Shown here piece by piece: positions 5,943-53,964 of a DNA stretch of 64,000 nt. The DNA comes from an uncultured Candidatus Saccharibacteria bacterium (GTDB lineage: Bacteria; Patescibacteriota; Doudnabacteria; UBA920). Made by a program: the position numbers and the translations under genes. The DNA lies in assembly GCA_964536745.1 (NCBI GenBank), contig CAZHYL010000002.1:68969-132968 (forward strand). The letters run 5' to 3'. How positions within the stretch are numbered: the first letter of the stretch is position 1; each line of letters starts with the position of its first letter. The notes beneath the pieces are model-generated. The model had not been told where the DNA came from and did not search any database. It saw nothing but the letters and a program-made list of their open reading frames with translations.

Positions 5943-7046
5943 TTGATGAGTTCAGTGTTTAACAAGCTTAAATTTTTTGATATACCGCTGCTTGTTGTCA
6001 GCGGTCTATTATTAGTTGTGGGATTAGCGGTGCAGTACGCCATATCCTTAGGAGAAGGAAATTTAGAATTTTTCTATAGACAGGCAATCTTTGCCTTAGG
6101 TTCTATTGTTGTGTTTGCATTGGTAGCAAATTATAATTATCAAATTTTAGCTAAGCGCAATCGGATCTTTTATATAATTTTAGTTTTTGCTTTGCTCTAT
6201 TTAGTTGTCTTTGGTGACCCTATCCGTGGAAGTGCAAGGTGGATAGAATTAGGGTTTTTCAGACTTCAGCCTGCCGAGCTAGCTAAAATTATCATCGCTT
6301 TGGGTTTATCCCGTTGGCTTTATTTAAATAGAGGGCAGATTAATTCGTGGAAAAATATTATCACCACATTTTTATATGCTGGTATACCTGCGGTGTTAAT
6401 TGCTCTAGAGCCAGACTTGGGCTCAACGATAATCATTTTAGCAATCTGGTTTGGAATTATACTTCTAAGCCCAATTAAAAAATCTTATATAGCCATTTTC
6501 ATCTTGGCCGGTTTGATTTTTGCTGGCACTGCGTGGGCATTTTTATTGCAAGACTATCAGATTAACAGAATTGAAGTATTCTTAAATCCCGATAAGGATC
6601 CACAAGGTAAAGGCTATAATGTCCGGCAAGCGATGATTGCAGTTGGTAGTGGACAATGGTTTGGCAGGGGATTAGGGCAAGGGGTTCAAAGTGGTTTAAA
6701 GTTTTTACCAGAAAAACATACTGATTTCGTATTCGCAGCTAGTAGTGAAGAAGTCGGCTTAGTGGGCTCGGTTTCAATTTTAATTTTGTTCTTTATATTA
6801 ATGTACCGGACTTTGGCAGTGATGAAACTCGCAAGGGATGATTTGGGTATGTACATAGCTGGTGGGGTATTTTTCTTTTTCGCCTCACAGGTAGTTATTA
6901 ATATCGGTATGAACATTGGGCTACTGCCCGTTACTGGAATTCCACTTCCATTAATTACTTATGGGGGTAGTGCGATGCTAGTTACTGCGATTGCCTTAGG
7001 GGTTGTGCAGAACATCGCAAAACAGTCAAAAGTACTAAGGTTTTAA
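5943..7046 (+). CDS. SEDS-family peptidoglycan glycosyltransferase (FtsW/RodA/SpoVE), probably RodA
   Basis: 367 aa polytopic membrane protein with SEDS hallmarks. A second copy in dcw context at 50684 is the likelier FtsW. Confidence 0.85.
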   Translation: MMSSVFNKLKFFDIPLLVVSGLLLVVGLAVQYAISLGEGNLEFFYRQAIFALGSIVVFALVANYNYQILAKRNRIFYIILVFALLYLVVFGDPIRGSARWIELGFFRLQPAELAKIIIALGLSRWLYLNRGQINSWKNIITTFLYAGIPAVLIALEPDLGSTIIILAIWFGIILLSPIKKSYIAIFILAGLIFAGTAWAFLLQDYQINRIEVFLNPDKDPQGKGYNVRQAMIAVGSGQWFGRGLGQGVQSGLKFLPEKHTDFVFAASSEEVGLVGSVSILILFFILMYRTLAVMKLARDDLGMYIAGGVFFFFASQVVINIGMNIGLLPVTGIPLPLITYGGSAMLVTAIALGVVQNIAKQSKVLRF

Positions 7047-16220: not shown

Positions 16221-16242
16221 ATCGCCGCGATGGCGGTTTTTT
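16221..16242 (+). terminator. Rho-independent terminator (CGCC-gcgat-GGCG followed by tttttt) after the methyltransferase
   Basis: Read directly from the sequence. It immediately follows a repeat of the tRNA-Trp 3' end. Confidence 0.45.
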
Positions 16243-16256
16243 GCTATCCTATAAAT

Positions 16257-17021
16257 ATGAATGAACATAGGGAACAACATTTAAGTCCAGAAAGAATGAA
16301 AGGCGAACAAGTCGCCTCCATGGTAAAGGAAGTGTTTGATAAATTCCCCTTTGAAGTTACACAGCACTTGGTTGATTCAAATGTTGTATTAACGCTTGCA
16401 GGAATGAAAGGTCAGACTGAATTTTTTATAGATGTCCCAGATGAATCTCAAGATGAAAGAATTATTCAAGGGATTAATGAGCTAAGTCAAAAATTACAAT
16501 CAATTGATTCAAATATAATTATGAGGTTGGAGCGTGAACCTTTCCCTGCAGCGAGTGATGGTGTGAGGACGATGATGGTGAATGTTCTGAACCTTTCTAC
16601 TTTAGAGGAGTGGATTCAAAAAACAAAACTTTGTGATTTACCCAAGTTTGATAAATCACAGGGTTTTGCTGGATTTGATAAATGGCGCGAAGACGTCGTC
16701 GAAAAATTTGGAGAAGATAGTGATGAGCAAGAAATGGGGGTCGGCGTTAGAAAAGGCTACCCTGATCAAGCGATTCTAGATTTTATTGATTGGTACAATA
16801 CTGGACGTGAAAAAGTTAAAGAAGATGCGAAAATTCTGAATACTGGTTTATATGATGAAGCTCAGCCGATTTATAGCTATTATGCAGAGCATGCTAATGA
16901 TCCAGAGATAGTCGATAATGTAAATCGATCATCAGAGATTCTCGCTGGTTTTTATCAGAGCCAGTGGCACAAGGAAATCGCTCCACGACTAGAATTTAAA
17001 AAGGGTCGCAATCTTGAATAA
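16257..17021 (+). CDS. Hypothetical protein
   Basis: About 254 aa. Start moved to MNEHREQ, which follows a TATAAAT box. No recognisable domain. Confidence 0.5.
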   Translation: MNEHREQHLSPERMKGEQVASMVKEVFDKFPFEVTQHLVDSNVVLTLAGMKGQTEFFIDVPDESQDERIIQGINELSQKLQSIDSNIIMRLEREPFPAASDGVRTMMVNVLNLSTLEEWIQKTKLCDLPKFDKSQGFAGFDKWREDVVEKFGEDSDEQEMGVGVRKGYPDQAILDFIDWYNTGREKVKEDAKILNTGLYDEAQPIYSYYAEHANDPEIVDNVNRSSEILAGFYQSQWHKEIAPRLEFKKGRNLE

Positions 17022-17072: not shown

Positions 17073-17921
17073 ATGACATACAACCCAGAAATATCGCATC
17101 ATAACTTTATCGATAATAACCGTGAAGTTAGCCCAGAAGCTAAGCTTACTGGTTTAATGAGTTCGGTTTCAGAAAAGCAAAATTTGGAGCTTGAACAGCG
17201 CTTTGGTTTAAGTAAGCTTTTGGATTCAGAAGGTAGAATATCCAGTGCAGATTACGGTTCCGTTTATACTGAACAGGAATTAAATGAGTTTTTGGCTACT
17301 TTAAATAAAATGGAACAGAAATTTTCAGAAAAGAATTCTGGACATTTTTCTGATAGAGAACAATGGAAGGCGGATAAATCAAAAAGTAAAGGTAATCAAA
17401 CAGAGCTGGCTATAACTTGCTTATTGTATAAAATGTTAGGTGATAGATACTTGGTAGCACGAACGAACGAATATGATGATTATACAAATGGTGCAGACAA
17501 CGTGCTGATAGATAAAGAAACAGGGGTTGCGATTTGCGCTTTCGATGAAGTGTATGACCGCGAGGAAGAGCGCACTAATGCAGAAAAGAAGCAATTAAAA
17601 GTTTTAGAGATTGCTCTCGCAGGTGGTACTGATATAAATTTCGGAGTTGTGTCCGAGGAGGGTGTTTTAAAAAGAGGGAAACAAGAAAATTTGCCCATTT
17701 TCTATTTGGGTTTGAATAAGGAAGAATTGAATGAATTACTTCAAGAAATGGCTGACGACCCAAATGAAAAAACTGATTTAGAAAGAGTTGTCTACGCGAA
17801 GTTAATGAAATCTATTGCCCAGCAGTTTGTTGTGCTAATGCGACAGAATCTTCCAGAGAAGGTAAAAGAAAATTTATTTAAATTTAAAGAGTCGTTTAGT
17901 AAAGTTCAGATCCCTAAGTAG
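17073..17921 (+). CDS. Hypothetical protein (acidic, coiled-coil-rich)
   Basis: 282 aa ORF with no recognisable domain. Confidence 0.5.
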   Translation: MTYNPEISHHNFIDNNREVSPEAKLTGLMSSVSEKQNLELEQRFGLSKLLDSEGRISSADYGSVYTEQELNEFLATLNKMEQKFSEKNSGHFSDREQWKADKSKSKGNQTELAITCLLYKMLGDRYLVARTNEYDDYTNGADNVLIDKETGVAICAFDEVYDREEERTNAEKKQLKVLEIALAGGTDINFGVVSEEGVLKRGKQENLPIFYLGLNKEELNELLQEMADDPNEKTDLERVVYAKLMKSIAQQFVVLMRQNLPEKVKENLFKFKESFSKVQIPK

Positions 17922-19325: not shown

Positions 19326-19823
19326 ATGTTAACTTGGAAAAATATCATTACCGTTTCTGTATTTGTTTATTGCCTATACTACCTTAGCAGTTTAGACTCG
19401 TGGCACTTTATTGATTACGTTAATTTAGCTATCCATGAAGCAGGACATGTTATATTCATACCTTTCGGATATTTTCTTACAGTTAGCGGGGGTACAATAT
19501 TACAATTACTTATCCCAGTTGTGTTTATTTGCTATTTTGCTTTTCGCAAAGAAAACTATTCAGCGAGTTTACTTGTTTATTGGTTGGCCTTAAATTTATT
19601 TAACATATCCGTCTATGCCAGCGATGCTTTAAAAATGCAACTTCCATTATTAACTGGCGATAAAGACGGTCATGATTGGAATCAAATCTTGTTTACACTA
19701 AATCTGTTACGTCACACACAGTTTATCGGTAAGGCAATTTTGGGACTGGGAGTGGCATCAATTATTATTGCCTTAATTTGGGGTCTATATGAATCTAGAA
19801 GAACTATACAACAGCGCAGTTAA
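19326..19823 (+). CDS. Polytopic membrane protein with an HExxH motif (putative zinc metallopeptidase)
   Basis: 165 aa. AIHEAGHVIF lies at the edge of a TM segment, with GDKDGHDW downstream. Confidence 0.45.
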   Translation: MLTWKNIITVSVFVYCLYYLSSLDSWHFIDYVNLAIHEAGHVIFIPFGYFLTVSGGTILQLLIPVVFICYFAFRKENYSASLLVYWLALNLFNISVYASDALKMQLPLLTGDKDGHDWNQILFTLNLLRHTQFIGKAILGLGVASIIIALIWGLYESRRTIQQRS

Positions 19824-24151: not shown

Positions 24152-24643
24152 AATCCTCCAATGCAGTGTGATTTTCAAACAAAAACACATAACTAAAAAA
24201 GTTGTGTGTTTTTGTTTTGCTTCAAGCAGGTTCGTAAGCCGGATTTTGTGTCTACATGACAATCTATCTAGGCACCTTGTTGCCAAGCTGCTCGTGCTGC
24301 CCACCAAATTTGGCATTGCACTCAAGTAAGAATTTTGCCGTTTCACCCTTATAGTTTCCTATAAGGTTAATCCCGAAGGATTCCTTTGCATCTCTGCTTA
24401 GGCGTCACTGTTCGCATCTCTAGAGTTACCTCAGACGGGCGTTACCCGCTACTATTGTTAAAAGCTCATATGATACTTTCAACTTGAGTGTCCGGACTTT
24501 CCTCTTCAAACAAAGTAAGAAGTAGTCATGCGGCCTGCTTAAAGCTATTAAATAGTGCCACAGATTTGTGTTTTTGTCAATCAGAGAATCCATAATTTGA
24601 TGATATAATTAAGCTAAATTCACTAAATTAACACTATATTTTT

Positions 24644-25750
24644 GTGAAAATAGATAAATCTGATGTAGTTTTAGCGCATGATTCATTTACCCAGTATGGT
24701 GGAGCGGAAAGGGTAATAGAAGCGATCTCGGAAATATACCCAAATAGCGAAATATACACTCTAGCGACCGACCCAAAGGTTCTTAGGCATCTAGCTGGTA
24801 AAGTTTTTAAAACCAGTTTTTTAAACTTGTTTTATAAGATTATCCCTAAACTGCAGTGGTGGTTTCCATTCGCTCCTGCGGCTTTAAGATTTTTAAAAAT
24901 TAGAAATGCAAAAGTCGTGATTAGTAGTAGCTCTGCTTACATGAAAGGGCTCCGCAAGCCAGAGGGTAGTATTCATATAGATTATTGTCATACGCCAACT
25001 CGGTTTCTCTGGAGTGATATTGTCTATGCTGAAGGTGAAGTACCAAAAATCTTACGTCCGCTCATGAGAGCTTACTTATTATGGCTTCGCAAGTGGGACT
25101 TGAAAGCAGCAAGTAACGTTGATTATTTCATAGCTAACTCTAAAGAAGTTCAGAATAGAATCAAACGTTATTACAATCGCGAAAGTAAATTAATTTATCC
25201 TTATATTGATACAAACTTTTGGCGTAACTCTAAATCAAAACAAAATTATTATTTAGTCGCCGGCAGGCTTACTCCATACAAGGGTTACGAAAAAGTAATC
25301 GAAATATTTAACGAATTAGGTTTGCGTCTGCATGTCATTGGTGAAGGTAGATATTCAAGTTACTTGCAATCAATTGCTAACAGAAACATTATCTTTTTTG
25401 GTCGCGTTAGTGATAAAGAATTAAGAGATCAATACAGTTCTGCTCAGGCTTTTATATACCCTCAAGTTGAAGATTTTGGTCTTATGCCTCTTGAAGCGGC
25501 AAGTTGTGGTACCCCAACTATTGCCTTGGCCAAAGCTGGTAGTCTAGAAACTGTACTACCTGGTATCACGGGTGAATTAGTAGAAAACTTTGATTCAGAG
25601 ACAGTTAAAAACCTTATTCACAACTGGGATGTGACTAAATACAATCCAGAACGTATGAAACAACATGCTATGAGTTTTAGCAAAGATGTATTCCAAGAAA
25701 ATATTCGAAATTACGTAAACGAAGTTATCAACCATGCAAGTCGCAATTGA
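24644..25750 (+). CDS. Glycosyltransferase family 4 (GT-B, retaining)
   Basis: 368 aa with C-terminal EDFGLMPLEAASCGTPTIA, the GT4 E-x7-E region. Confidence 0.8.
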   Translation: MKIDKSDVVLAHDSFTQYGGAERVIEAISEIYPNSEIYTLATDPKVLRHLAGKVFKTSFLNLFYKIIPKLQWWFPFAPAALRFLKIRNAKVVISSSSAYMKGLRKPEGSIHIDYCHTPTRFLWSDIVYAEGEVPKILRPLMRAYLLWLRKWDLKAASNVDYFIANSKEVQNRIKRYYNRESKLIYPYIDTNFWRNSKSKQNYYLVAGRLTPYKGYEKVIEIFNELGLRLHVIGEGRYSSYLQSIANRNIIFFGRVSDKELRDQYSSAQAFIYPQVEDFGLMPLEAASCGTPTIALAKAGSLETVLPGITGELVENFDSETVKNLIHNWDVTKYNPERMKQHAMSFSKDVFQENIRNYVNEVINHASRN

Positions 25751-26849
25751 CCTACGTAGCTTACACGCTAAAAATTATAGTGGTGTAGAGCTATTCACAA
25801 TTCAGGCTATTGAAAGGCTGATTGAGCTGGATAAAGAGCGCCAGTATCTACTTTTTTATAATGGGGCTAAACCAAAGACTTTTGATGAGTTTCATTTTTT
25901 GAATGTCAAATACAAGCAAACGAGAATTCCTAATCGGTTATTAAATTTTGGGTTTAGATTCTTAAAATGGCCAAAGATCGAAAGCTTGGCAGATGAACCA
26001 AGAGTTTTATTAATGCCGAATCCGAATATGGTGGCAGTACGGAGCCTAACTAAGCTAGTTTTAGTTATTCATGACTTGTCTCCAGTGGTGATGCCTGAAA
26101 TGTATTCATTTAAGGCCCAAGTTTGGCATAAATTTATCAATGTGAAGAAGTTATGCCAGCGAGCGGATAAAATTTTAGCAGTGTCAGAGTATACCAAGCA
26201 GGCTTTAGTAAACGATCTAGGTATTGAAGAGGAAAAAATTCACACTGGACTATTAGGGGTAGATCATAATCGGTACCACAACGACATTGATATTAATAAA
26301 CTAAGGTCTGTTAGAAATGTGTATGGTCTACCGGGGAAATTTGTACTATTTGTCGGTACACTTGAACCAAGAAAAAATTTAGCAAGGCTCCTTGAGGCGT
26401 TTGAGAGTTTAGATTCAGATCATCATTTAGTAATTGCAGGTAAACTTGGCTGGCGATATTCAGAAGCAATGGACTTAATGAGGAATACAAAAAAACGAAA
26501 TTTTATTCACTACTTAGGATATGTTCCAGAGGAAGATAAACCAGCATTGATTAAATTAGCCAAGGTGTTTGCTTGGCCAAGTTTGTATGAAGGTTTTGGA
26601 CTGCCTGTTTTAGAAGCCATGGCAGTTGGCACCCCTGTTCTAACTTCAAATGTAACATCCCTTCCAGAAGTAGCTGGGGATTGCGCTTTGATGGTTAATC
26701 CTTACAACGTCGATGATATTAGAAAAGGGCTTCAGATGCTTACAACACAATCAAATTTGCGAGAGCGGTATATTAAAGCTGGATTGATCCGTAGTAAAAA
26801 ATTCACTTGGGACCATACAGCATCCGTGTTAAAAGAATTATTGGATTAA
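25734..26849 (+). CDS. Glycosyltransferase family 4
   Basis: 371 aa with [21 protein letters not shown]. Confidence 0.8.
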
Positions 26850-26850
26850 T

Positions 26851-27993
26851 ATGAAAATTGGCTTTGATTTCAGAATGGGTGGAAGTATAAATGCCGGAAT
26901 AGGTCGGTATAGTTTTGAGTTGCTCCAAGCCTTGTTAAGACAGAACCAGCAGCATGAGTTCGTAGTTTTTTATAATGAGTTTAATGTCAACATAAGAGAT
27001 CTAGAAGTTTTACAGAAGCTCAAAGTCCAATTAGTTAAAGCAAATTTTAGACATTATTCATACTCGGAACAGTTCGCATATCCAAAATTACTTAATAGTT
27101 ATGGTTTAGATTTAATGCATTTCCCCAACTTTAATGTACCAATTTTTTACAAAGGAGATTATGTAGTAACAATCCACGATATGGTTCACCATAAAATTAG
27201 TGGACATAAAAAAAGTCGTTATTATAAATTTTTAGCATATAAGTTTATAATTAATAGAGCTGCTCAAAAAGCTCTAAAGATTATTACAATCACTGAAGCA
27301 GCAAAGAAGGAGATTATAGAATTTCTAAGTGTCCCAGCAGATAAGGTTGAAGTTATCTATGAAGCTCCACCAGAACAAATTGAAGAGGCTTCAGATTTTT
27401 CGGAGCTAAAGAAAGCATATTTACTCAACAAACCATATTTATTATTTGTGGGTTCTTTAGAAAGAAAGAAGAATGTAATTAAGCTTTGCCAAGGCTTCGA
27501 TATATTATTGGACAAGTATAAATACGACCTTGATTTAGTAATTGCTGGTAAGGTTGACCCTCATTACCCCGAAATTCGTACTCAAGCGCTGGCGATTAAG
27601 CATCATGACAACCTAGTTTTCACAGGTTATGTTACTAATAGTGACCAGATAACTTTATATAAAAATGCTTTTGCCTTCGTGACGGCGTCTCTCCATGAAG
27701 GGTTCGGGTTGCCTGGCGTTGAGGCTATGCAGTACGGAATTCCTGTATTGGCAGCTAATACTGAAGTTTTTAATGAAGTATACGATAATGCAGCAATATT
27801 TTTTGATGGATCAGACCCAGCAGATATCGCAGAAAAAATTCATCTGTTAATAAGCGATCAACCGTTTTATGAATCTATGCAAAAAAAGAGTGTAGAACGT
27901 GCGAGTATTTTCTCTTGGCAGAAGGCCGCAAAACAGACATTAGAACTTTATCGAAACCTAAAAAGTGTTAGTTACGATCCAGAACAAGAATAA
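26851..27993 (+). CDS. Glycosyltransferase family 4
   Basis: 380 aa with EGFGLPGVEAMQYGIPVLAAN. Confidence 0.8.
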   Translation: MKIGFDFRMGGSINAGIGRYSFELLQALLRQNQQHEFVVFYNEFNVNIRDLEVLQKLKVQLVKANFRHYSYSEQFAYPKLLNSYGLDLMHFPNFNVPIFYKGDYVVTIHDMVHHKISGHKKSRYYKFLAYKFIINRAAQKALKIITITEAAKKEIIEFLSVPADKVEVIYEAPPEQIEEASDFSELKKAYLLNKPYLLFVGSLERKKNVIKLCQGFDILLDKYKYDLDLVIAGKVDPHYPEIRTQALAIKHHDNLVFTGYVTNSDQITLYKNAFAFVTASLHEGFGLPGVEAMQYGIPVLAANTEVFNEVYDNAAIFFDGSDPADIAEKIHLLISDQPFYESMQKKSVERASIFSWQKAAKQTLELYRNLKSVSYDPEQE

Positions 27994-41140: not shown

Positions 41141-41176
41141 AAAACCCCTTAATTATAAGGGGTTTTATTTTATTTT
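41141..41176 (+). terminator. Rho-independent terminator after secF
   Basis: aacccctt-aatt-ataaggggtt followed by a long T-run. Confidence 0.6.
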
Positions 41177-41240
41177 ACTATATGGATTATTTGACCCGTT
41201 ACAATATATATGTTATAATTGTGAATATTAAAACACGTGT

Positions 41241-42332
41241 ATGGGAATACTCGATACAATCATTGACTCACATCAAAAAGAATCATTGCAGGAATTTGAA
41301 CTAAACCAAATCATTACAAAGATTCTTGAACCATTAAAAGAACGCGAGAAGACTATTTTGTCTAAGCGTTATGGTCTTAATGATGAGCAAATTCAAACTC
41401 TTAAAGTAGTAGGTGAGGAACAGGGGCTTACAAGAGAACGTGTTAGACAAATTGAAAAAGAATTATTGAAAAACCTTAAGCGTGGGGTAAATGAACTAGA
41501 AGATTTTATTGCCGCGAAAGATCTTTTGATTAACACTATCGCTGAACATGGTGGAATTATGTCAGAAGAGGCTCTAACTAATTATTTGGGTTATACCGAA
41601 CCAACAGACGTTCAAGCTCTTAAATTTTTATTAAAGCTTATCGCTGAACTAGAAGAACATTCAGCAGATGAACACATTAGACAATCTTGGACTAAGATTG
41701 GTTTTGATAAAGATTTCTTACATCAGTTCGTAGTTGTCACTAAAGATTTACTAAACAATCATGGAAAGCCTGTTCAACCAGAAGAATTATTGTCAAAGAT
41801 TGAAAAGACCGATTTTTATTCCGAAAATCAAGCTAAGCTAACTCCTAAGGTTATGCTTAACTACTTGCACACCGCAAATAATGTTAAGAAAAATCCATTT
41901 GGTGAGTTTGGTTTAGGACACTGGAATGAAATTAAACCAAAAGATGTAGGTGACAAAGCTTACTTAGTAATGAAGCACCACGGAAAACCAGAGCACTATT
42001 CTGTAATCACTGATATGATTAACGAGCACGGAATAGATAAGCGAAAGGCTTTTAAAGAAACTGTACACAATAAACTAATTAAAGATAAAAGATTTGTCTT
42101 GGTTGGAAGAGGTATTTACGCCCTTACAGAATGGGGATACCAACCCGGCGTTGTTTCAGATATCATTGTTGAAATTTTGAAAGAAAAAGCCGAGCCTATG
42201 ACTCGCGACGAAATTGTTGAAGAAGTCTTGAAGAGACGATTAGTAAAGAAAAATACTGTACTTGTGGGATTGTCTAATAAAAAATTGTTTAAGAAAGTTG
42301 GAAAAAATCTTTACGATTTAACAACCGCCTAA
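41241..42332 (+). CDS. DNA-binding protein: N-terminal sigma-70 region-4-like HTH followed by two HARE-HTH-like winged-helix segments
   Basis: 363 aa. EREKTILSKRYGLNDE...QGLTRERVRQIEKELLKNLKR resembles sigma region 4. RFVLVGRGIYALTEWGY and TVLVGLSNKKLF...NLYDL resemble HARE-HTH. Confidence 0.5.
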   Translation: MGILDTIIDSHQKESLQEFELNQIITKILEPLKEREKTILSKRYGLNDEQIQTLKVVGEEQGLTRERVRQIEKELLKNLKRGVNELEDFIAAKDLLINTIAEHGGIMSEEALTNYLGYTEPTDVQALKFLLKLIAELEEHSADEHIRQSWTKIGFDKDFLHQFVVVTKDLLNNHGKPVQPEELLSKIEKTDFYSENQAKLTPKVMLNYLHTANNVKKNPFGEFGLGHWNEIKPKDVGDKAYLVMKHHGKPEHYSVITDMINEHGIDKRKAFKETVHNKLIKDKRFVLVGRGIYALTEWGYQPGVVSDIIVEILKEKAEPMTRDEIVEEVLKRRLVKKNTVLVGLSNKKLFKKVGKNLYDLTTA

Positions 42333-42367
42333 ATTAAGATTAGTTTTAAAACCAAAACCAGTTAAAT

Positions 42368-43549
42368 ATGAACAACGGCCTACTCCCAGACATAACAAGC
42401 GTACTCAATATTATTTGGTTCCTATTCAGTCATGGTGGATGGGTCGTTTTTGTTTTACTTGTAATCTATATTTTGTATCAATTGTACCTTAATGAAATCC
42501 AAAGTCAGTATCTAAGCACAATTGAATGGACCTTATTGGAAATAAAACCACCTAAAGAGAATGCCACTAGTTTTTACAATGCCGAGCAAGTGTTTATTCA
42601 GTTACACCAATTATTTGATAATTTTAATTTTCAGGAAAAATACTTAGAAGGGAAGTTAGTATTTACTATTTCCTTCGAAATAATCAGCCTTGGTGGAAAG
42701 ATATCTTATCTTGTACGGGTTCCAACAAAGCAGAGAGATTTACTAGAAGCAGCGCTCTATGCAAACTACCCAAGTATAGAACTCACAGAAGTAAAAGATT
42801 ACTTAGATAATTTTAAATATGACCCAGAAAACAAAACTTATGATTTGTTTGGAGCAGAGTTTGTACTGGTAAAACCTCAAAGTTACCCAATTAGAACATG
42901 GCGCGAATTTGAAAGTTTACATGGTCCAGAAACCAGTGAAATTGTTGTAGATCCATTAACACCATTATTTGAAACATTCACCAAGATTAGTGATCAGGAG
43001 TTTTATGGCGTACAATTCATTTTGCAACCTGTTATGGATGATTCTTGGCACGACGAAGCAGAAGAAATTGTCGAAAAATTAAAAGGTGAAAAGGAGTTAA
43101 TCGCTTTAGATGATATAACTAAACAGCAAATTACCTCTATTAAAAATAAACTTGGTCGTCCAGGATATAAAACCAAGATTAGGCTCTTACATTTGGGAGT
43201 TAAGGAACATTTTAATAAGAATGCAAAGAAATTGGTCTTAAGTCCGTTTCGCATTTTCAGTTCTGCTAATTATAATGGTTTCAAGCCTGCATTTGGCCCT
43301 AAGAAAGATTATAAGATCTCACCATCACTAGAAGCTCCCTACCTAGATTGGTGGGTAAAAAGACGTAAACAGCAATTATTTGAGGGTTATAAAGCCAGAA
43401 CACAGTACATAGGTGAAAGTACTTACATTCTAAATACAGAAGAGCTCGCAACCTTGTTCCATTTCCCAATTACAAAGACCGCAGTTACACAACCTGTAGA
43501 AAGCCTAGATACCAAGAAGATTCAACCACCAGCTAATTTACCAATATGA
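42368..43549 (+). CDS. Single-pass membrane protein of unknown function, partner of the downstream coupling-type ATPase
   Basis: 393 aa with an N-terminal TM segment (IIWFLFSHGGWVVFVLLVIYILY). Its stop overlaps the start of the ATPase gene by 4 bp. Confidence 0.55.
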   Translation: MNNGLLPDITSVLNIIWFLFSHGGWVVFVLLVIYILYQLYLNEIQSQYLSTIEWTLLEIKPPKENATSFYNAEQVFIQLHQLFDNFNFQEKYLEGKLVFTISFEIISLGGKISYLVRVPTKQRDLLEAALYANYPSIELTEVKDYLDNFKYDPENKTYDLFGAEFVLVKPQSYPIRTWREFESLHGPETSEIVVDPLTPLFETFTKISDQEFYGVQFILQPVMDDSWHDEAEEIVEKLKGEKELIALDDITKQQITSIKNKLGRPGYKTKIRLLHLGVKEHFNKNAKKLVLSPFRIFSSANYNGFKPAFGPKKDYKISPSLEAPYLDWWVKRRKQQLFEGYKARTQYIGESTYILNTEELATLFHFPITKTAVTQPVESLDTKKIQPPANLPI

Positions 43550-45300
43550 GTTCACAACCAGATCAAATAAATTTTTTCGCTAAAACTAACTTTCGTAACA
43601 AGCAAGTGCCTTTTGGTATAAAAACCGATGATAGGCGCAGGCACATGTATGTAATCGGAAAGACAGGGATGGGAAAGACAACCATGATGGAGAACATGGT
43701 TATTCAAGATATCCGAAATGGCAATGGAGTTTGCTTTATCGACCCGCATGGTGATTCCATCCGAAAAATCCTAGATTTCGTACCACCAAACAGAATTAAT
43801 GACGTGGTATATTTTGATCCATCCGATTTAGATCACCCAATTGCATTTAACATTTTAGAGTCAGTTGAAAGTAGATATAAACATTTGGTAGCTTCAGGCT
43901 TAATGGGTGTGTTCACAAAAATCTGGGCCAGCATGTGGTCTAGTCGTATGGAATACATCTTAAATAACACCATTCTTGCTTTACTAGATAGCCCAGGAAA
44001 CACAATGCTTGGTATAGTCCGTATGTATGTAGATAAAAAGTACCGTAAGAAAATTGTCGACAACATCAAAGATCCTATGGTAAAAGCTTTTTGGGTAGAA
44101 GAATTCGCAAACTACGCAGAAAAATATCGAACAGAAGCTGTGGCACCAATTCAAAATAAAGTTGGGCAGTTCTTATCTTCCGCAGTAATCAGAAATATCG
44201 TTGGTCAGCCAAAATCCACGATTGACCTGCGGGAGATCATGGATAACCGCAAAATCTTACTACTAGACCTTTCTAAAGGAAAAGTAGGTGAGGATAATTC
44301 AGCTTTGCTTGGTGCAATGATCATCACCAAACTTCAGTTAGCAGCACTCTCACGTGTCGATATTCCTGAATCAGAAAGACAAGACTTTTATCTTTACGTG
44401 GACGAATTTCAAAACTTCGTCACAGATAGTTTTGCAACAATTCTATCCGAAGCTAGAAAGTACCGTTTAAATTTAACTATCGGACATCAGTACATTGGAC
44501 AATTAACCCCAGACAACAATACAAAAGTAAGGGATGCTGTGTTTGGAAACGTTGGCTCAATGGTAGTGTTTAGAGTAGGTGCAGCAGATGCAGAGTACTT
44601 GGAAACTGAATTTGAGCCTTCTTTCACCCCAACTGATATCGTGAATCTTCCTAAATTCCACATCATTCTGAAACTCATGATTAATGGAATGACTAGCGAC
44701 CCTTTTACAGCTGTCACAATCCCAGTTGATGAAAACTGGATAGTTGGTAATGGTGAAAAGGTAATAAAGGTTTCAAGGGAACGATATGCAAACCCAAGAG
44801 AACAAGTTGAAGAGAAGATTCAACGTTGGATGGGAACGGAATTCCATGAAGCTTCTGCGGAATCTCATAGTAGTGAACAGGGAGAACAATCTTTAGCAAG
44901 AGTAAAATCTCCTAAAGTAGAATCTACCAAGCCAGAACAGTCCGAAGAGAATGAAGTAAAAATACCAGTTGAACAAAATGACAGCCCTATGCCTAAGCCT
45001 AGTATTCAGATTTCTTCTGATTACTTAGAAAGGGTAAAAACACCGAAACAGAACGCGCAAAAGTTTACGAAGCCGAACCAAAAATCATTCTCTAAAAATA
45101 AGAACCAAAAGCCTGCTTCAAAAAATAATAAGCCAGATGTTTGGAAAACTGCTCAGAATTTACAACAAGATAATCAAAAGAAGGTCGCAGAGGATATTTC
45201 TTCGGCAATTGAGTCCGCCTTCACTAAACAGGCAGAGCCACAGTCGGCCAAGCCTAATGATTCTAGTTCAATAGAGCCTGGTCAAACTTATCAACTCTAA
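43546..45300 (+). CDS. VirD4/TraD/TrwB-like type IV coupling-protein-family ATPase with a disordered C-terminal tail
   Basis: 584 aa. Walker A VIGKTGMGKTT, then FIDPHGD about 20 aa downstream, Walker B LYVDEFQNF. The roughly 150-aa C-terminus is rich in K, Q, N, P and S. Confidence 0.65.
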   Translation: MSSQPDQINFFAKTNFRNKQVPFGIKTDDRRRHMYVIGKTGMGKTTMMENMVIQDIRNGNGVCFIDPHGDSIRKILDFVPPNRINDVVYFDPSDLDHPIAFNILESVESRYKHLVASGLMGVFTKIWASMWSSRMEYILNNTILALLDSPGNTMLGIVRMYVDKKYRKKIVDNIKDPMVKAFWVEEFANYAEKYRTEAVAPIQNKVGQFLSSAVIRNIVGQPKSTIDLREIMDNRKILLLDLSKGKVGEDNSALLGAMIITKLQLAALSRVDIPESERQDFYLYVDEFQNFVTDSFATILSEARKYRLNLTIGHQYIGQLTPDNNTKVRDAVFGNVGSMVVFRVGAADAEYLETEFEPSFTPTDIVNLPKFHIILKLMINGMTSDPFTAVTIPVDENWIVGNGEKVIKVSRERYANPREQVEEKIQRWMGTEFHEASAESHSSEQGEQSLARVKSPKVESTKPEQSEENEVKIPVEQNDSPMPKPSIQISSDYLERVKTPKQNAQKFTKPNQKSFSKNKNQKPASKNNKPDVWKTAQNLQQDNQKKVAEDISSAIESAFTKQAEPQSAKPNDSSSIEPGQTYQL

Positions 45301-45303
45301 AAT

Positions 45304-45338
45304 AAAAAACCCGAAGATTAGTTTCGGGTTTTTTATTT
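45304..45338. terminator. Bidirectional terminator shared by the ATPase gene (+) and trxA (-)
   Basis: aacccgaa-gattagt-ttcgggtt flanked by an A-run and a T-run. Confidence 0.6.
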
Positions 45339-50683: not shown

Positions 50684-51793
50684 ATGAAAAATACAAAAAC
50701 TACATTTGATAAACCACTACTTGTTATCACAATAATTCTGTTGTTGATTGGTTTAAGCGTGCTTTGGTCTGCTTCAACAACTGAAGCTGAACAAAATTTT
50801 GGCAGCACGAGTTATTTCATTATAAGACAACTAACTAGGGGAGTATTGGTTGGTCTAATACTAATGTATATATTTAGTAAATTCGATTATCATCGCTTCA
50901 AAAAGCCAGCAGGGATTTTTGTTGTTGTCGCTCTATTGCTACTAATTTTAGTAAAAGTCCCTGGGCTCGGACTTACAGCAAACGGCGCAACTAGATGGTT
51001 AGTAATCGGTCCACTTTTGTTTCAGCCATCAGAATTAGCAAAATTGGCAATGATACTGTATATCTCTGCTTGGTATAGCCAGCCAGGCCGAGGAATGGGT
51101 CACGATTTTTGGAAATCAATTTTTCCACCAGTTGCGATTGTTGGCTTAATGTCATTTCTTATTATTTGGCAACCAGATTTGGGATCAACGATTTCATTAT
51201 TGGGAATCGTAGGATTGATGATTTATGCCGGAGGGACGAGGCTAAAATATCTTTTCTACCTATTTGCCGGTGGAGTTACTGCTGTCGTAGGTTTTGCCAT
51301 AATCGAACCCTACCGACTTCAGAGAATTACGGCTTTTCTTAATCCAAGTGGTGACCCACTCGGAATCAGCTACCAAATTAACCAAGCCCTAATTGCAGTT
51401 GGTACCGGTGGTTTACTAGGGTATGGCTATGGACTATCCAGACAAAAACATTTTTACCTCCCTGAAGCCATCAATGACTCAATCTTCGCTGTTATGGCGG
51501 AAGAGCTAGGTTTTATTCGTGTTGTGCTAATTTTGCTATTGTTTGCGTATTTAGTATTTAGAGGTATTAAAATCAGCTTAAATACTACAGACCAGTTCGG
51601 TAAAATGCTGGCATTCGGTCTTACCTCTCTAATCGGAGTTAATGTTATTATTAATGTAGGGGCAATAATCGGTCTCATCCCTTTAACAGGGATCCCTTTG
51701 CCATTTTTTAGCTATGGAAGCACTGCCATGATAGTTTCGCTGAGCGCAGTCGGTATATTACTTAATATTTCAAAACAGAACAGAGCAGTTTAA
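50684..51793 (+). CDS. ftsW: Cell-division SEDS protein FtsW
   Basis: 369 aa SEDS protein immediately downstream of murD. Confidence 0.85.
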   Translation: MKNTKTTFDKPLLVITIILLLIGLSVLWSASTTEAEQNFGSTSYFIIRQLTRGVLVGLILMYIFSKFDYHRFKKPAGIFVVVALLLLILVKVPGLGLTANGATRWLVIGPLLFQPSELAKLAMILYISAWYSQPGRGMGHDFWKSIFPPVAIVGLMSFLIIWQPDLGSTISLLGIVGLMIYAGGTRLKYLFYLFAGGVTAVVGFAIIEPYRLQRITAFLNPSGDPLGISYQINQALIAVGTGGLLGYGYGLSRQKHFYLPEAINDSIFAVMAEELGFIRVVLILLLFAYLVFRGIKISLNTTDQFGKMLAFGLTSLIGVNVIINVGAIIGLIPLTGIPLPFFSYGSTAMIVSLSAVGILLNISKQNRAV

Positions 51794-51798
51794 AGCAA

Positions 51799-53964
51799 AT
51801 GAAAACCAAACTCAAAGTAATACTTCATCATAATATTTCTGAAGAAGTTACCATGAAATCTAAGCATGGCTTTTTAGGTTTTTTGAAGTTTGCTTGGTTT
51901 AAGATTATCAACCTCATAATGAACTTCTTTTACGCAGTCGGGTTAGCTTTAATAACTATCCCAAAGCTTCCGATACTATTCGCAAAAGAATCAACTTCAT
52001 TATTTAAAAAGCAAAGCTTCACAATCAACTTTTCAAAAGCTGTACCGTTCGTGCTCTTAGTAACAATTGCGAGTGCACCAATACTGCTTGCCAAAACAGC
52101 TTCAGAAGGACAAAGACTCGGCGGCAGGGTATTAGGAATCAGTACAGATGCACTACTTGATGCGGAACAAGCTAAGCACGCTATTACAGAAGAAAATTTT
52201 TCTTTGGCTCAAGACAACTTTACTCTTGCCTTACAAAAGCTAGAGACAGCTCAAGTTGAGCTAGATAAATCTAGTATTTTATTAGAATCTATCGTTAAGT
52301 TATCTCCCGATAAATACAACACAGAAAATATATTAGAGTCGGCGAAGCTCCTTACGGAGAGCGGTGCTCTTGGTTCAGAAATTCTAAATAATCTAACTAA
52401 GATTAAATTTTCTCCGGATGGCATCACTCATACGGATGGGCAGAATATTAAAGAAACATTGGAGAATCTGAATAGTAACTCAAAAAAAATCTCTCAGAAT
52501 TTAAGCAAAGCTAACGAGCTAATGGCACCACTAGACACCTCCTTGTTGCCAGCAGAATATCAACTTCCACTAGAAGCTAGTAAAAGTTTAGTAGCTGATT
52601 TCAGTAAACTGACTGAAACTTTAAGCAAAGCCACCGACTTATTTTATGAATTACTGATTAAAGATCAGACATTTTTGATTGTGATGCAAAACAACAACGA
52701 ACTACGCCCAACAGGTGGTTTTATTGGAACAGTGGGGCAGGGTAAATTAAAAGAAGGCAAAATCACGTCATTAGATATACGGAGCGTTTACGATTTTGAT
52801 GGTCAAATTGTAAACTGGTACACACCGCCAATTCCAATGCAAACTGTAAACAACAGATTGTTTTTAAGGGATAGTAACTGGCTTGCCCATTTTCCAGATT
52901 CTGCTTCACTAATAAATTACAATTATGAAAGATCAGGAGGAGAAACTCCAGATTTAATTATTGCCTTTACACCAGACTTATTCATCCAATTACTCGAATT
53001 AACTGGTCCAATTGTTTTGCCAAATTACAACGTTACTATAAGTAAAGAAAACTTTATAGAACAGATCCAAACTACGACTTCTGTAGAATATAGCAAAGAA
53101 CTTAATCAACCTAAACAAATGCTCGCGGATTTATATCCTGCCTTAATGCAAAGAGTTGGTGAAGTAACAAAAAATGACAGTCTCTCTGTCCTGAATTTAT
53201 TCTTAGAAAATTTAGCTAGCAAGAATATCCAGCTTTACTCTAGGGACCCAGAATTACAATCTAAGATTTTAGCTTTTAACTGGGGTGGCTCCATTAACGA
53301 AACTTCACGAGACTACTTAGAAATGAGCTTTAGTAATTTAAGTGGGACCAAAACTGATCGCAGTCTAATAAGATCAGCCCAACTTAACACTTCTATCGCA
53401 GAGGACGGGTCAATTATAAATGAACTAACTTACAAGGTAAAAAATCCCTTACCAAACCAAGCAGGATTGGGAAATCGGTCGCTACTACGTATTCTCGTAC
53501 CAAATGGTAGTAGGCTAATTTCGACATCTAATTTTTACTCATTTGAATTACCTAAACTCGATGATAGAAGCACCTACTTAACAGATGACTTAATCGCTAC
53601 TTGGAATAATTCATTAAAATTTTCAGATCAATATCAAGTTTGGGAGGGGCAAGAGTCTGGTAAAGATTTTTATGCGGGCTGGGTAAATGTCGACGGGGGC
53701 TCAGAGCAAACCGTTACTATTACATACCAGTTACCGTTTAAAGTTAAGGATAAGGATAGATATAGTCTTTTATGGCAGAAACAAAGCGGAGTTTTACCAT
53801 TTGAAATCACACAAAAGATCTATTTCCCGAACCGCTCAATCATCTGGGATAACTTCCAAAATAAAGAAAATCTGACAAAAAATAGTACCCAAAACAGCTT
53901 AACATGGTCAGGGAAATTAATTACTGATAACTTTATTGGAATGGTACTGGATTCCAAACAATAG
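51799..53964 (+). CDS. Large membrane-anchored extracytoplasmic protein, DUF4012-like
   Basis: 721 aa with N-terminal TM segments and a large exported domain containing ELRPTGGFIGTVGQG. My recollection that this motif belongs to DUF4012 is unverified. Confidence 0.5.
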   Translation: MKTKLKVILHHNISEEVTMKSKHGFLGFLKFAWFKIINLIMNFFYAVGLALITIPKLPILFAKESTSLFKKQSFTINFSKAVPFVLLVTIASAPILLAKTASEGQRLGGRVLGISTDALLDAEQAKHAITEENFSLAQDNFTLALQKLETAQVELDKSSILLESIVKLSPDKYNTENILESAKLLTESGALGSEILNNLTKIKFSPDGITHTDGQNIKETLENLNSNSKKISQNLSKANELMAPLDTSLLPAEYQLPLEASKSLVADFSKLTETLSKATDLFYELLIKDQTFLIVMQNNNELRPTGGFIGTVGQGKLKEGKITSLDIRSVYDFDGQIVNWYTPPIPMQTVNNRLFLRDSNWLAHFPDSASLINYNYERSGGETPDLIIAFTPDLFIQLLELTGPIVLPNYNVTISKENFIEQIQTTTSVEYSKELNQPKQMLADLYPALMQRVGEVTKNDSLSVLNLFLENLASKNIQLYSRDPELQSKILAFNWGGSINETSRDYLEMSFSNLSGTKTDRSLIRSAQLNTSIAEDGSIINELTYKVKNPLPNQAGLGNRSLLRILVPNGSRLISTSNFYSFELPKLDDRSTYLTDDLIATWNNSLKFSDQYQVWEGQESGKDFYAGWVNVDGGSEQTVTITYQLPFKVKDKDRYSLLWQKQSGVLPFEITQKIYFPNRSIIWDNFQNKENLTKNSTQNSLTWSGKLITDNFIGMVLDSKQ

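What the first reader, a model, noticed from the sequence alone, without database searches (positions are those of the whole stretch)
41241..45300. Minimal coupling-ATPase module: sigma-r4/HARE-HTH DNA-binding protein, single-pass membrane protein and VirD4/TraD-like ATPase with a disordered tail, with no other T4SS parts
The 584-aa protein has a Walker A (GKTGMGKTT), a downstream IDPHGD box and a Walker B (LYVDEFQNF) arranged as in TraD/TrwB/VirD4 coupling proteins. It ends in a tail of about 150 residues rich in K, Q, N, P and S, which looks like a low-complexity interaction or DNA-binding region. The ATPase is translationally coupled to a 393-aa protein with one N-terminal TM helix and a large extracytoplasmic domain. 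Upstream is a 363-aa protein combining a sigma-70 region-4-like HTH with two HARE-HTH-like winged helices. No VirB4, VirB6 or other secretion components lie nearby. Instead the trio is embedded between secDF and trxA / cell-wall genes. A DNA- or protein-translocating ATPase paired with one membrane partner and a dedicated DNA-binding protein could be a stripped-down DNA uptake or export device. It could also be a regulator-coupled motor. It is not a canonical T4SS.
Basis: partly seen in the sequence, partly recalled or inferred. Interest (0 to 1): 0.6.

Follow-up and report, generated by a model that had tools for sequence, protein, structure and literature searches.

The report
Split VirB4/VirD4-type motor operon, Patescibacteria
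The three genes are a real operon, conserved across Patescibacteria (CPR bacteria), that encodes a conjugation-type (VirD4-like) ATPase, a separate membrane anchor folded like the front half of the secretion ATPase VirB4, and a DNA/RNA-polymerase-binding protein; it sits among housekeeping genes, not in a secretion system, and its job is still unknown.

The parts
41141..41176 (+). Intrinsic-terminator-like hairpin (11-bp stem AAAACCCCTTA/TAAGGGGTTTT, then a T-rich tract) directly after the secF stop codon. It separates secDF from the trio.
41191..41219 (+). Best sigma-70-type promoter match of the region (TTGACC, 17-nt spacer, TG-TATAAT; 11 of 12), 22 nt upstream of the first gene.
   Evidence: This is a consensus match only; promoter-like sites were not enriched over shuffles in the region as a whole.
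41241..42332 (+). Gene 1: a 363-aa protein with a sigma-70 region-4 domain followed by winged helices of HARE-HTH type. It has no sigma region 2, so it is not a sigma factor.
   Evidence: A homologue lies directly upstream of the membrane gene in 70 of 80 loci.
41325..41480 (+). Sigma-70 region 4 (residues 29-80), including the recognition helix TRERVRQIE.
   Evidence: Pfam PF04545 at 40.2 bits. Aligns to RpoS/RpoD/SigA region 4 at E 6e-10. The helix is at least 90% conserved in 64 homologues.
41955..42134 (+). Best-scoring HARE-HTH winged helix (residues 239-298). With the following winged helix it is the most conserved part of the protein.
   Evidence: Pfam PF05066, E 1.1e-17 with 3 stretches. 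Conservation.
42368..43549 (+). Gene 2: a 393-aa DUF8128 (PF26449) protein made of an N-terminal membrane helix and a cytoplasmic VirB4-N-terminal-domain-like alpha/beta domain.
42398..42499 (+). Hydrophobic membrane segment (residues about 11-44) with a conserved HGGW motif. Orientation is N-out, C-in.
42527..43456 (+). Alpha/beta domain (residues 54-363), whose only strong structural match is the N-terminal domain of TrwK/VirB4.
43514..43546 (+). Conserved C-terminal peptide K-x4-PPANLPI after a disordered linker. It corresponds to the domain junction in fused relatives and is the likely docking peptide for the ATPase.
   Evidence: Invariant P388, L391 and P392. Low pLDDT at 372-393. Junction alignments.
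43546..43549 (+). ATGA overlap of the gene 2 stop codon with the gene 3 start codon (translational coupling).
43546..45300 (+). Gene 3: a 584-aa T4CP (VirD4/TraD/TrwB)-type ATPase with no membrane segment, made of a core (1-430) and a disordered tail.
43657..43683 (+). Walker A motif GKTGMGKTT (residues 38-46).
43738..43755 (+). IDPHGD box (residues 65-70), which aligns with VDPNGD of TrwB.
44392..44418 (+). Walker B motif LYVDEFQNF (residues 283-291).
44836..45297 (+). Low-complexity tail (residues 431-584), acidic then lysine-rich. Conserved islands are W533 with a predicted helix at 532-559, and a terminal PG motif.
45304..45334 (.). Hairpin AAAAAA-CCCGAA-loop-TTCGGG-TTTTTT between the ATPase stop codon and the convergent trxA stop codon. 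It is a candidate bidirectional terminator.
   Evidence: Read directly from the sequence. The pattern scan did not list it.

Best explanation
The locus is a vertically inherited, Patescibacteria-wide three-gene operon. It encodes a membrane-anchored motor of the VirB4/VirD4 ATPase superfamily that has been split into two polypeptides, together with a sigma-region-4/HARE-HTH nucleic-acid- or RNA-polymerase-binding protein.

Shown:
- The 393-aa DUF8128 protein is a single N-out/C-in membrane helix followed by a cytoplasmic domain with the fold of the VirB4 N-terminal domain.
- The 584-aa protein is a soluble T4CP-type P-loop ATPase.
- The two are colinear with single-chain relatives, so they form one functional unit. 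The junction falls at the conserved PPANLP peptide.
- The trio is transcribed separately from secDF. It is syntenic across many candidate phyla and is never next to T4SS genes.

Inferred:
- DUF8128 plays the part that the N-terminal domain (with VirB3) plays for VirB4. It holds and organises a ring of ATPase subunits on the inner face of the membrane, and its C-terminal peptide docks on the N-terminal strands of the ATPase.
- The ATPase uses ATP to move a polymer. This is most probably DNA, as in TrwB/TraD and in the T4CP-like ATPases of Dnd/MADS defence systems.
- The sigma-r4/HARE-HTH protein supplies the nucleic-acid or RNA-polymerase contact.
- The motor works on the cell's own nucleic acid, independently of conjugation, as an accessory housekeeping function. 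A second, always-fused paralogue carries the essential role.
For: Architecture:
- Colinear fusion: L032 852-aa protein, profile-profile E 5.6e-34 and 3e-125, and the A-type fused P0500 with a 6-residue junction.
- Positive-inside rule.

ATPase class:
- Pfam TrwB_AAD_bind above its cut-off.
- Only TrwB and DotL are found in PDB sequence searches.

Inheritance and context:
- At least 582 species-level hits, with record titles naming many candidate phyla of Patescibacteria (a few carry other labels).
- The sigma-r4/HARE-HTH gene is adjacent in 70 of 70 loci where it was found, with a median gap of 43 nt. The ATPase is adjacent in 64 of 67, with a median gap of 21.5 nt.
- No T4SS family is among the recurrent neighbours. 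The whole window is housekeeping.
- The ATPase core has a median identity of 62%, against 45% for SecD and 44% for SecF, in 61 distant loci.
- A terminator and promoter lie upstream, and a terminator downstream.

Literature:
- T4CP homologues occur in 2,918 of 3,035 genomes against VirB4 in 2,417, and only 148 of 5,713 are near virB4 (PMC12102498).
- All three Southlakia homologues belong to core, Patescibacteria-enriched families (PMC10633639 Table S1).

DNA link:
- A sigma-r4 recognition helix conserved at 90% or more.
Against: - No direct evidence shows what the motor moves. DNA is inferred from family resemblance only.
- The ATPase model is poor (pLDDT 50), so pore or DNA-binding features could not be examined.
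- In Southlakia the sigma-r4/HARE-HTH homologue is essential while the adjacent ATPase is not. The DNA-binding protein therefore must do something beyond serving this ATPase, and the co-transcription may reflect history rather than partnership.
- About six loci keep secF-DUF8128-ATPase without the sigma-r4/HARE-HTH gene, and eight keep sigma-r4/HARE-HTH-DUF8128 without an adjacent ATPase.
- A VirB4-like N-terminal domain is exactly what one would expect of a subunit that docks on a T4SS inner-membrane complex, and most Patescibacteria do have a T4SS elsewhere in the genome.
- Orthology of the Southlakia genes rests on annotation and synteny, not on sequences I could align.
Confidence: 0.45

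Rival explanations
1. The pair is the unlinked coupling ATPase of the Patescibacteria type IV secretion system. The VirB4-like N-terminal domain of DUF8128 docks the T4CP-type motor onto the VirB3/VirB6/VirB8 inner-membrane platform encoded elsewhere, and the motor feeds substrates (DNA or proteins) into that channel.
For: - The ATPase is T4CP-like by sequence.
- DUF8128 has the fold of the VirB4 domain. From established knowledge of the R388 T4SS structures, that domain contacts VirB3 and VirB8 in the inner-membrane complex.
- Patescibacteria T4SS clusters generally lack a coupling protein in cis, and T4SS genes are present in about 80% of genomes (PMC12102498, PMC10633639).
Against: - T4CP homologues are more widespread than VirB4 (2,918 against 2,417 of 3,035 genomes) and are almost never linked to it.
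- In Southlakia the T4SS is essential, but the sigma-r4-linked ATPase SEML1_0293 is not.
- The ATPase is more conserved than SecD/SecF, unlike typically fast-evolving T4SS parts.
- The operon partner is a sigma-r4/HARE-HTH protein, not a relaxase or a T4SS subunit.
- There are two paralogues per genome, each in its own housekeeping synteny.
Confidence: 0.25
2. The sigma-r4/HARE-HTH protein is an independent, essential RNA-polymerase-associated or promoter-binding factor that merely shares a transcript with the motor. The DUF8128/ATPase pair acts on another substrate, for example proteins at the membrane in connection with SecDF.
For: - The sigma-r4/HARE-HTH homologue is essential while the adjacent ATPase is dispensable in Southlakia.
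- Both of its domain types are known RNA-polymerase binders: sigma region 4 and the delta-subunit HARE-HTH (TIGR04567, 35.4 bits).
- secD-secF lies immediately upstream in 53 loci, and it persists next to DUF8128 even where the sigma-r4/HARE-HTH gene is missing.
Against: - The sigma-r4/HARE-HTH gene adjoins DUF8128 in every one of the 70 loci where it was found, with short gaps, including Southlakia, where the rest of the neighbourhood differs.
- In the window, secDF is separated from the trio by a terminator and a promoter.
- No T4CP-family member is known to work with the Sec machinery. This rests on my own knowledge and was not tested.
Confidence: 0.17
3. The trio is an anti-phage defence module built on a T4CP-like DNA translocase, in the manner of DptH (Dnd) or the MADS system.
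For: - PADLOC mad8 hit at E 1.8e-14, and an MzaA hit on the sigma-r4 domain at 1.5e-9.
Against: - The module is near-universal, single-locus, syntenic and slowly evolving across a whole phylum. This is the opposite of the patchy, fast-turnover pattern of defence islands.
- No nuclease, methylase or other effector lies in the operon or recurs nearby.
- The matches cover only the generic ATPase and sigma-r4 domains.
Confidence: 0.03
4. The trio is a remnant of an integrated conjugative or mobilisable element.
For: Only the T4CP family assignment of the ATPase supports this.
Against: - GC content (0.34-0.40 across the trio) stays close to that of the flanks.
- The window has no integrase, relaxase or other conjugation gene.
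- Synteny with secDF is conserved across many candidate phyla, and sequence conservation is very high.
Confidence: 0.02

Closest known systems
Type IV coupling proteins (VirD4 / TraD / TrwB / DotL; Pfam TrwB_AAD_bind, T4SS-DNA_transf)
   Same: - The ATPase shares Walker A, the DPxGD box, Walker B and the Q-rich motif.
- It scores above the Pfam gathering threshold.
- TrwB and DotL are the only PDB sequences detected.
- It has a helical insertion where TrwB has its all-alpha domain (low-confidence model).
- It has a disordered C-terminal tail with conserved islands, as TraD has for TraM binding.
   Different: - It has no N-terminal two-helix membrane domain; anchoring is delegated to a separate or fused VirB4-N-terminal-domain-like module.
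- It is not linked to mating-pair-formation genes or relaxases.
- It falls far below all NCBIfam/TIGRFAM T4CP cut-offs.
- It is chromosomal, vertically inherited and very slowly evolving.
VirB4 / TrwK (and natural VirB3-VirB4 fusions)
   Same: - The overall architecture of the pair, and of its fused relatives, is the same: membrane segment, then an N-terminal alpha/beta domain, then a RecA-like ATPase.
   Different: - DUF8128 has no detectable sequence similarity to VirB4.
- The ATPase half is VirD4-like, not VirB4-like, by sequence (TIGR00929 12.6 bits against a 643 cut-off).
- It is split into two genes here.
- It is not in a T4SS locus.
TrsD-type stand-alone VirB4-N-terminal-like proteins of Gram-positive and Patescibacteria T4SS (PMC12102498)
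   Same: These are also separate polypeptides resembling the N-terminal part of VirB4, encoded next to an ATPase of the same superfamily.
   Different: - TrsD homologues lie mostly next to virB4 (1,664 of 2,272).
- DUF8128 lies next to, or fused with, T4CP-like ATPases and away from virB4.
- A direct comparison with TrsD was not possible with the tools available.
EccE-EccC of mycobacterial type VII (ESX) secretion
   Different: The similarity is much weaker. The ATPase clade (FtsK/SpoIIIE) and the secretion context are different.
FtsK / SpoIIIE (membrane anchor + motor + winged-helix gamma domain)
   Same: The logic is the same: a membrane-anchored ring ATPase of the same superfamily combined with a winged-helix DNA reader.
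   Different: - Saccharibacteria already carry an annotated ftsK (10.1101/2022.03.25.485537).
- TTGACA shows no strand polarity in the window.
RNA polymerase delta subunit (RpoE) and sigma-70 region 4
   Same: Gene 1 combines a primary-sigma-like region 4, with the recognition helix TRERVRQIE, and HARE-HTH winged helices of the kind found at the N-terminus of delta.
   Different: - It has no sigma region 2 or 3, so it cannot be a sigma factor.
- It has no acidic delta tail.
- It scores below the TIGR04567 cut-off (35.4 against 42).
- It is co-transcribed with a membrane motor.

Membership tests
Type IV coupling protein (VirD4/TraD/TrwB) | P-loop nucleotide-binding domain with T4CP-type Walker A, DPxGD and Walker B motifs, scoring above the Pfam family threshold | tested here: met
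   TrwB_AAD_bind 43.3 bits against a 20.5 cut-off. TrwB E 7e-6 and DotL E 1.5e-3 are the only PDB relatives.
Type IV coupling protein (VirD4/TraD/TrwB) | N-terminal transmembrane domain in the same polypeptide | tested here: not met
   No 19-residue window of the ATPase exceeds a Kyte-Doolittle mean hydropathy (KD) of 1.45, and Walker A starts at residue 38.
Type IV coupling protein (VirD4/TraD/TrwB) | All-alpha domain inserted in the nucleotide-binding domain | tested here: inconclusive
   A helical stretch at about 103-233 lies between core strands, but the model is low-confidence (pLDDT 50). The Pfam match spans profile positions 10-314 of 387.
Type IV coupling protein (VirD4/TraD/TrwB) | Genetic association with VirB4/mating-pair-formation genes or a relaxase | tested here: not met
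   None in the 64-kb window and none recurrent in 80 loci. In the literature, 148 of 5,713 homologues are near virB4.
Type IV coupling protein (VirD4/TraD/TrwB) | Curated NCBIfam/TIGRFAM equivalog scores (TraD, SXT_TraD, CD1115) | tested here: not met
   Best score is 51.4 bits against a 366 cut-off.
Type IV coupling protein (VirD4/TraD/TrwB) | Hexameric, DNA-stimulated ATPase that recruits secretion substrates | not testable with these tools
   Needs biochemistry.
VirB4 | VirB4-type N-terminal domain fold | tested here: met
   [not shown]
VirB4 | N-terminal domain and ATPase on one polypeptide | tested here: not met
   Two genes in the window. The feature is met in fused relatives.
VirB4 | VirB4-type sequence signature (TIGR00929 / CagE_TrbE_VirB) | tested here: not met
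   TIGR00929 gives 12.6 bits against a 643 cut-off, and there is no CagE_TrbE_VirB hit. The DUF8128 profile finds no VirB4 among PDB sequences.
DUF8128 (Pfam PF26449) | Match to the family model | tested here: inconclusive
   The local Pfam copy gave no match to this family. Nearly all of the 120 listed homologues, including the identical sequence P0001, carry precomputed PF26449, which is named DUF8128.
HerA / FtsK-SpoIIIE translocases | Family-specific ATPase signature and accessory domains (HAS barrel; FtsK alpha/gamma domains) | tested here: not met
   [not shown]
Sigma-70 family sigma factor | Region 2 (core binding and -10 recognition) together with region 4 | tested here: not met
   Only Sigma70_r4 matches. 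All NCBIfam sigma hits cover residues 3-90 alone and are far below their cut-offs.
RNA polymerase delta subunit (RpoE) | N-terminal HARE-HTH plus a long acidic C-terminal tail, scoring above the TIGR04567 cut-off | tested here: not met
   35.4 bits against a 42 cut-off. The C-terminal third is net positive.

The most novel reading that the evidence does not exclude
The essential sigma-region-4/HARE-HTH protein physically couples promoter DNA or RNA polymerase to membrane-anchored VirB4/VirD4-type motors. That would make a Patescibacteria-specific machine handling the cell's own nucleic acid at the membrane, for example promoter-targeted DNA or transcript translocation, possibly feeding the T4SS towards the host. 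It would be a kind of transcription-linked translocase with no described counterpart.
Probability: 0.1. Interest if true: 0.9.

Novelty: new variant of a known kind. Interest (0 to 1): 0.6.

Why it matters
- Patescibacteria make up a large share of bacterial diversity. Nearly all of them carry about two 'orphan' coupling-protein homologues whose role is unknown, and the only phylum-wide survey left open that they were exapted (PMC12102498).
- This analysis gives those proteins an anatomy: a VirB4-like N-terminal anchor (DUF8128), split or fused, in front of a VirD4-like motor. It also gives them a conserved partner, a sigma-r4/HARE-HTH protein that is essential in the one genetically tractable species, and two paralogous lineages with different essentiality.
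- That turns a vague annotation into testable hypotheses in Southlakia. Does the motor bind the sigma-r4/HARE-HTH protein, DNA, or the T4SS?
- It also bears on how VirB4 and VirD4 diverged, because this family combines the N-terminal half typical of one with the ATPase half typical of the other.

Tried and rejected
- The afdb50 fold library was unavailable.
- A sequence-level link between DUF8128 and VirB4 was sought and not found.
- An FtsK-like 'polarity reader' idea, with sigma-r4 reading co-oriented TTGACA sites, got no support: 3 sites against 10 on the two strands. Saccharibacteria also have an annotated ftsK.
- PHROG 5156 matches the fused architecture, but two IMG/VR scans found no viral relatives. 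I did not pursue a phage origin.
- Defence-system membership was rejected on distribution and conservation.
- Literature searches for PF26449 and DUF8128 returned nothing, and a HARE-HTH plus sigma search gave nothing relevant.
- I could not obtain whole genomes, so co-occurrence with VirB4 rests on published counts.
- I could not align the Southlakia proteins directly, so their orthology rests on domain coordinates and gene order in the paper's tables.

Full report
**What is in the sequence**

Three co-directional ORFs occupy 41241-45300: 363 aa, 393 aa and 584 aa. The last two overlap by ATGA.
- The 584-aa protein has Walker A GKTGMGKTT (residues 38-46), IDPHGD (65-70) and Walker B LYVDEFQNF (283-291). 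It has no hydrophobic segment. Its 154-residue tail is rich in S, K, Q, E, P and N, acidic at first and lysine-rich later.
- Pfam places it in TrwB_AAD_bind (43.3 bits, cut-off 20.5), with weaker DUF87 and TraG-D_C matches. All curated NCBIfam coupling-protein models fall far below their cut-offs.
- The 363-aa protein has Sigma70_r4 (residues 29-80) and HARE-HTH (three stretches, best at 239-298).
- The 393-aa protein has one N-terminal hydrophobic segment and no hit in the local Pfam or NCBIfam copies.

**The window as a whole**

The window is a Patescibacteria chromosome. Best homologues are named Candidatus Doudnabacteria. I scanned 43 larger ORFs along the 64 kb; most match housekeeping families and seven have no Pfam match. 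They include dnaE, prfA, S2, tsf, ddl, uppS, murG/C/B, secA, pepN, secD, secF, trxA, a D-Ala-D-Ala carboxypeptidase, mraY, murD, ftsW, murJ, lepA, ftsB, prsA and ATP synthase. RNase P RNA and tRNAs are also present. No VirB4, VirB6, VirB8 or relaxase was found.

**The membrane protein**

Its homologues (434 by word-indexed search; 2,882 cluster representatives at E up to 1e-3 in an exhaustive profile search) carry Pfam PF26449, named DUF8128.

An AF2 model from 33 sequences (pLDDT 79.8, pTM 0.77) has three parts:
- a long N-terminal helix (residues 9-51);
- an alpha/beta domain (54-363);
- a disordered end (372-393), which nevertheless contains the invariant peptide PPANLPI.

The fold matches VirB4.
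- In Foldseek, the first 13 hits are all TrwK chains, at E 9e-6 to 3e-4.
- The protein has no P-loop. The VirB4 entry that holds only the C-terminal ATPase domain (4ag5) is absent from its hit list but does match the ATPase model. The similarity is therefore to the VirB4 N-terminal domain.
- There is no sequence-level similarity to VirB4.

**The pair is one enzyme split in two**

In locus L032, about 9 kb upstream of that genome's split pair, lies an 852-aa protein. Its residues 121-408 align with the membrane protein up to the PPANLP motif, and residues 419-831 align with the ATPase at 43% identity, E 6e-122.

Profile-profile comparison makes the colinearity exact:
- DUF8128 columns 17-417 match fused columns 26-413 (E 5.6e-34);
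- ATPase columns 11-427 match fused columns 415-833 (E 3e-125).

This fused form is a large family of its own: 2,169 hits, about 830-890 aa, all 120 listed carrying PF26449 plus PF10412. I call it B-type. A 956-aa protein (P0500) is a fused version of the window's own lineage, which I call A-type. It is 58% identical to the window ATPase, and the junction reads ...PTNLPIEGSEEDLTLFAKTNFR....

The fused proteins have only the N-terminal hydrophobic segment before the ATPase. Lysine and arginine also cluster after the helix and not before it. The alpha/beta domain must therefore be cytoplasmic.

**Classification of the ATPase**

- By sequence it is coupling-protein-like. Single-sequence and profile searches of all PDB sequences recover only TrwB and DotL. 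No VirB4, FtsK or HerA appears even at E = 10.
- The enzyme thus joins a VirB4-type front half to a VirD4-type motor and lacks the membrane domain that defines canonical T4CPs.

**Distribution and context**

A scan of one genome per species found at least 582 relatives of the membrane protein. Record titles name many candidate phyla of Patescibacteria; a few are labelled otherwise.

In the 80 best loci:
- the sigma-r4/HARE-HTH gene is immediately upstream in all 70 where it was found (median gap 43 nt);
- the ATPase is immediately downstream in 64 of 67 (median gap 21.5 nt; 22 cases at 10 nt or less);
- secD-secF precedes the trio in most, at a median gap of 104 nt.

Exceptions exist. Eight loci follow the membrane gene with nusA or an mltG-like gene instead of the ATPase. 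About six have secF directly followed by the membrane gene, with no sigma-r4/HARE-HTH gene.

Clustering all neighbouring ORFs found no other recurrent family except housekeeping genes, and no T4SS family. In 61 distant loci the median identity to the window protein is:

| Protein | Median identity |
|---|---|
| ATPase core | 62% |
| SecD | 45% |
| SecF | 44% |
| sigma-r4/HARE-HTH | 35% |
| DUF8128 | 30% |

The B-type paralogue has its own conserved neighbourhood: a small ORF, the fused gene, two small ORFs, then dnaX. It too lacks T4SS genes.

**Transcription unit in the window**

- A strong terminator-like hairpin follows secF (41141-41166 plus a T tract).
- The best promoter-like site of the region lies at 41191-41219 (TTGACC, 17 nt, TG-TATAAT).
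- A hairpin flanked by A and T runs (45304-45334) lies between the ATPase stop codon and the convergent trxA.

These are consensus matches, not proof. They fit a three-gene operon separate from secDF.

**The sigma-r4/HARE-HTH protein**

- Residues 3-83 align with region 4 of primary-type sigma factors (RpoS, RpoD, SigA; E 6e-10), including the recognition helix TRERVRQIE.
- That helix is at least 90% conserved in 64 homologues, as are the last HARE-HTH and the final winged helix.
- There is no sigma region 2, so the protein is not a sigma factor. It is also below threshold for the RNA polymerase delta subunit.
- Both of its domain types are known to contact RNA polymerase or DNA. That is established knowledge of sigma region 4 and of delta. 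What this protein binds is unknown.

**What the literature adds**

- A 2025 survey found 5,713 VirD4-type homologues in 2,918 of 3,035 Patescibacteria genomes, only 148 of them near virB4. VirB4 itself is in 2,417 genomes. The authors noted that exaptation 'cannot be ruled out' (PMC12102498).
- The Southlakia epibionticum study states that its essential T4SS lacks a recognisable coupling protein (PMC10633639).
- In that study's tables, all of the first three genes below are flagged as core, Patescibacteria-enriched families, and none is discussed in the paper's text:

| Gene | Description | Tn-seq call |
|---|---|---|
| SEML1_0294 | 349 aa; PF04545 at 27-72, PF05066 at 225-283; lies directly upstream of SEML1_0293 | Essential at all time points |
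| SEML1_0293 | 921 aa; PF10412 at 402-719, i.e. a fused form | Non-essential, although normalised reads fall 5817, 2940, 1372 |
| SEML1_0142 | 1019-aa second paralogue | Essential |
| SEML1_0141 | Small ORF preceding SEML1_0142 | Growth-defective, then essential |

- I equate these genes with the window's proteins by domain coordinates and gene order. I could not align them.
- No paper in the library mentions PF26449 or DUF8128.

**Interpretation**

Shown:
- a phylum-wide, vertically inherited operon;
- a split VirB4-architecture motor with a VirD4-type ATPase;
- a cytoplasmic anchor domain;
- no linkage to T4SS genes.

Inferred:
- DUF8128 tethers and organises the ATPase ring at the membrane;
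- the motor moves nucleic acid;
- the sigma-r4/HARE-HTH protein provides the DNA or RNA-polymerase contact;
- the A-type motor is accessory, while the B-type is essential.

The main rival is that the VirB4-like domain docks this motor on the T4SS encoded elsewhere. The wider distribution of T4CP homologues than of VirB4 argues against it. So do the dispensability of SEML1_0293 while the T4SS is essential, and the unusual sequence conservation. None of these excludes it.

A second rival is that the sigma-r4/HARE-HTH protein is an independent essential transcription factor and the motor has another substrate. Its essentiality favours this; its invariable adjacency to DUF8128 argues against it. 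Defence-system and mobile-element readings are very unlikely given the distribution.

**Verdict**

The finding is a new variant of a known kind: a VirB4/VirD4-superfamily ATPase with a hybrid, split architecture in a non-secretion, housekeeping operon. Interest is moderate to high. The proteins are near-universal in a huge, poorly understood phylum, one partner is experimentally essential, and a genetic system exists to test the hypotheses.

Noticed in passing
L032:9-2567; L081:10001-12508; L083:10001-12547: A second, always-fused paralogue (DUF8128 plus T4CP ATPase, about 835-852 aa) has its own conserved neighbourhood: a small 138-166-aa ORF upstream, then two small ORFs and dnaX downstream. 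Its apparent Southlakia counterpart SEML1_0142 and the preceding small ORF SEML1_0141 score as essential in Tn-seq. The 2025 T4SS survey describes the Southlakia t4cp homologue as non-essential.
   Followed up: partly
[not shown]
   Followed up: no
window 42368-45300: PHROG family 5156 (824 positions, unknown function) matches the membrane protein at profile positions 27-202 and the ATPase at 396-815, so it has the fused architecture. Two scans of IMG/VR viral contigs nevertheless found no relatives. The origin of that phage-family entry is unexplained.
   Followed up: partly
[not shown]
   Followed up: partly
L026, L037, L042, L067, L065: Genome records titled 'uncultured Gammaproteobacteria bacterium' or 'Acutalibacteraceae bacterium' carry this Patescibacteria-type module, some with secDF upstream. 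These are probably mislabelled or contaminated bins.
   Followed up: no
L032:9938-11323 and lengths: In other lineages the DUF8128 protein is longer (450-600 aa), with extensions after the conserved C-terminal peptide. In L032 a PPxxLP-like motif appears twice (EPPFTLPV and VPPNLPF).
   Followed up: no
window 5943-7046 and 50684-51793: There are two FtsW/RodA-family genes in one 64-kb stretch. There are also three tandem GT4 glycosyltransferase genes (24644-27993) and a 721-aa DUF4012 protein (51799-53964) inside the cell-wall gene cluster.
   Followed up: no
window 5094-5942, 16230-17021, 17073-17921, 19326-19823: These are sizeable ORFs (165-282 aa) on the coding strand with no Pfam match at E up to 1e-3.
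   Followed up: no
window 1-64000: Almost all genes lie on the + strand, and cumulative GC skew rises steadily across the window. This is consistent with one replichore with strong gene-strand bias. RNase P RNA (24219-24541) is one of the few features on the - strand.
   Followed up: no
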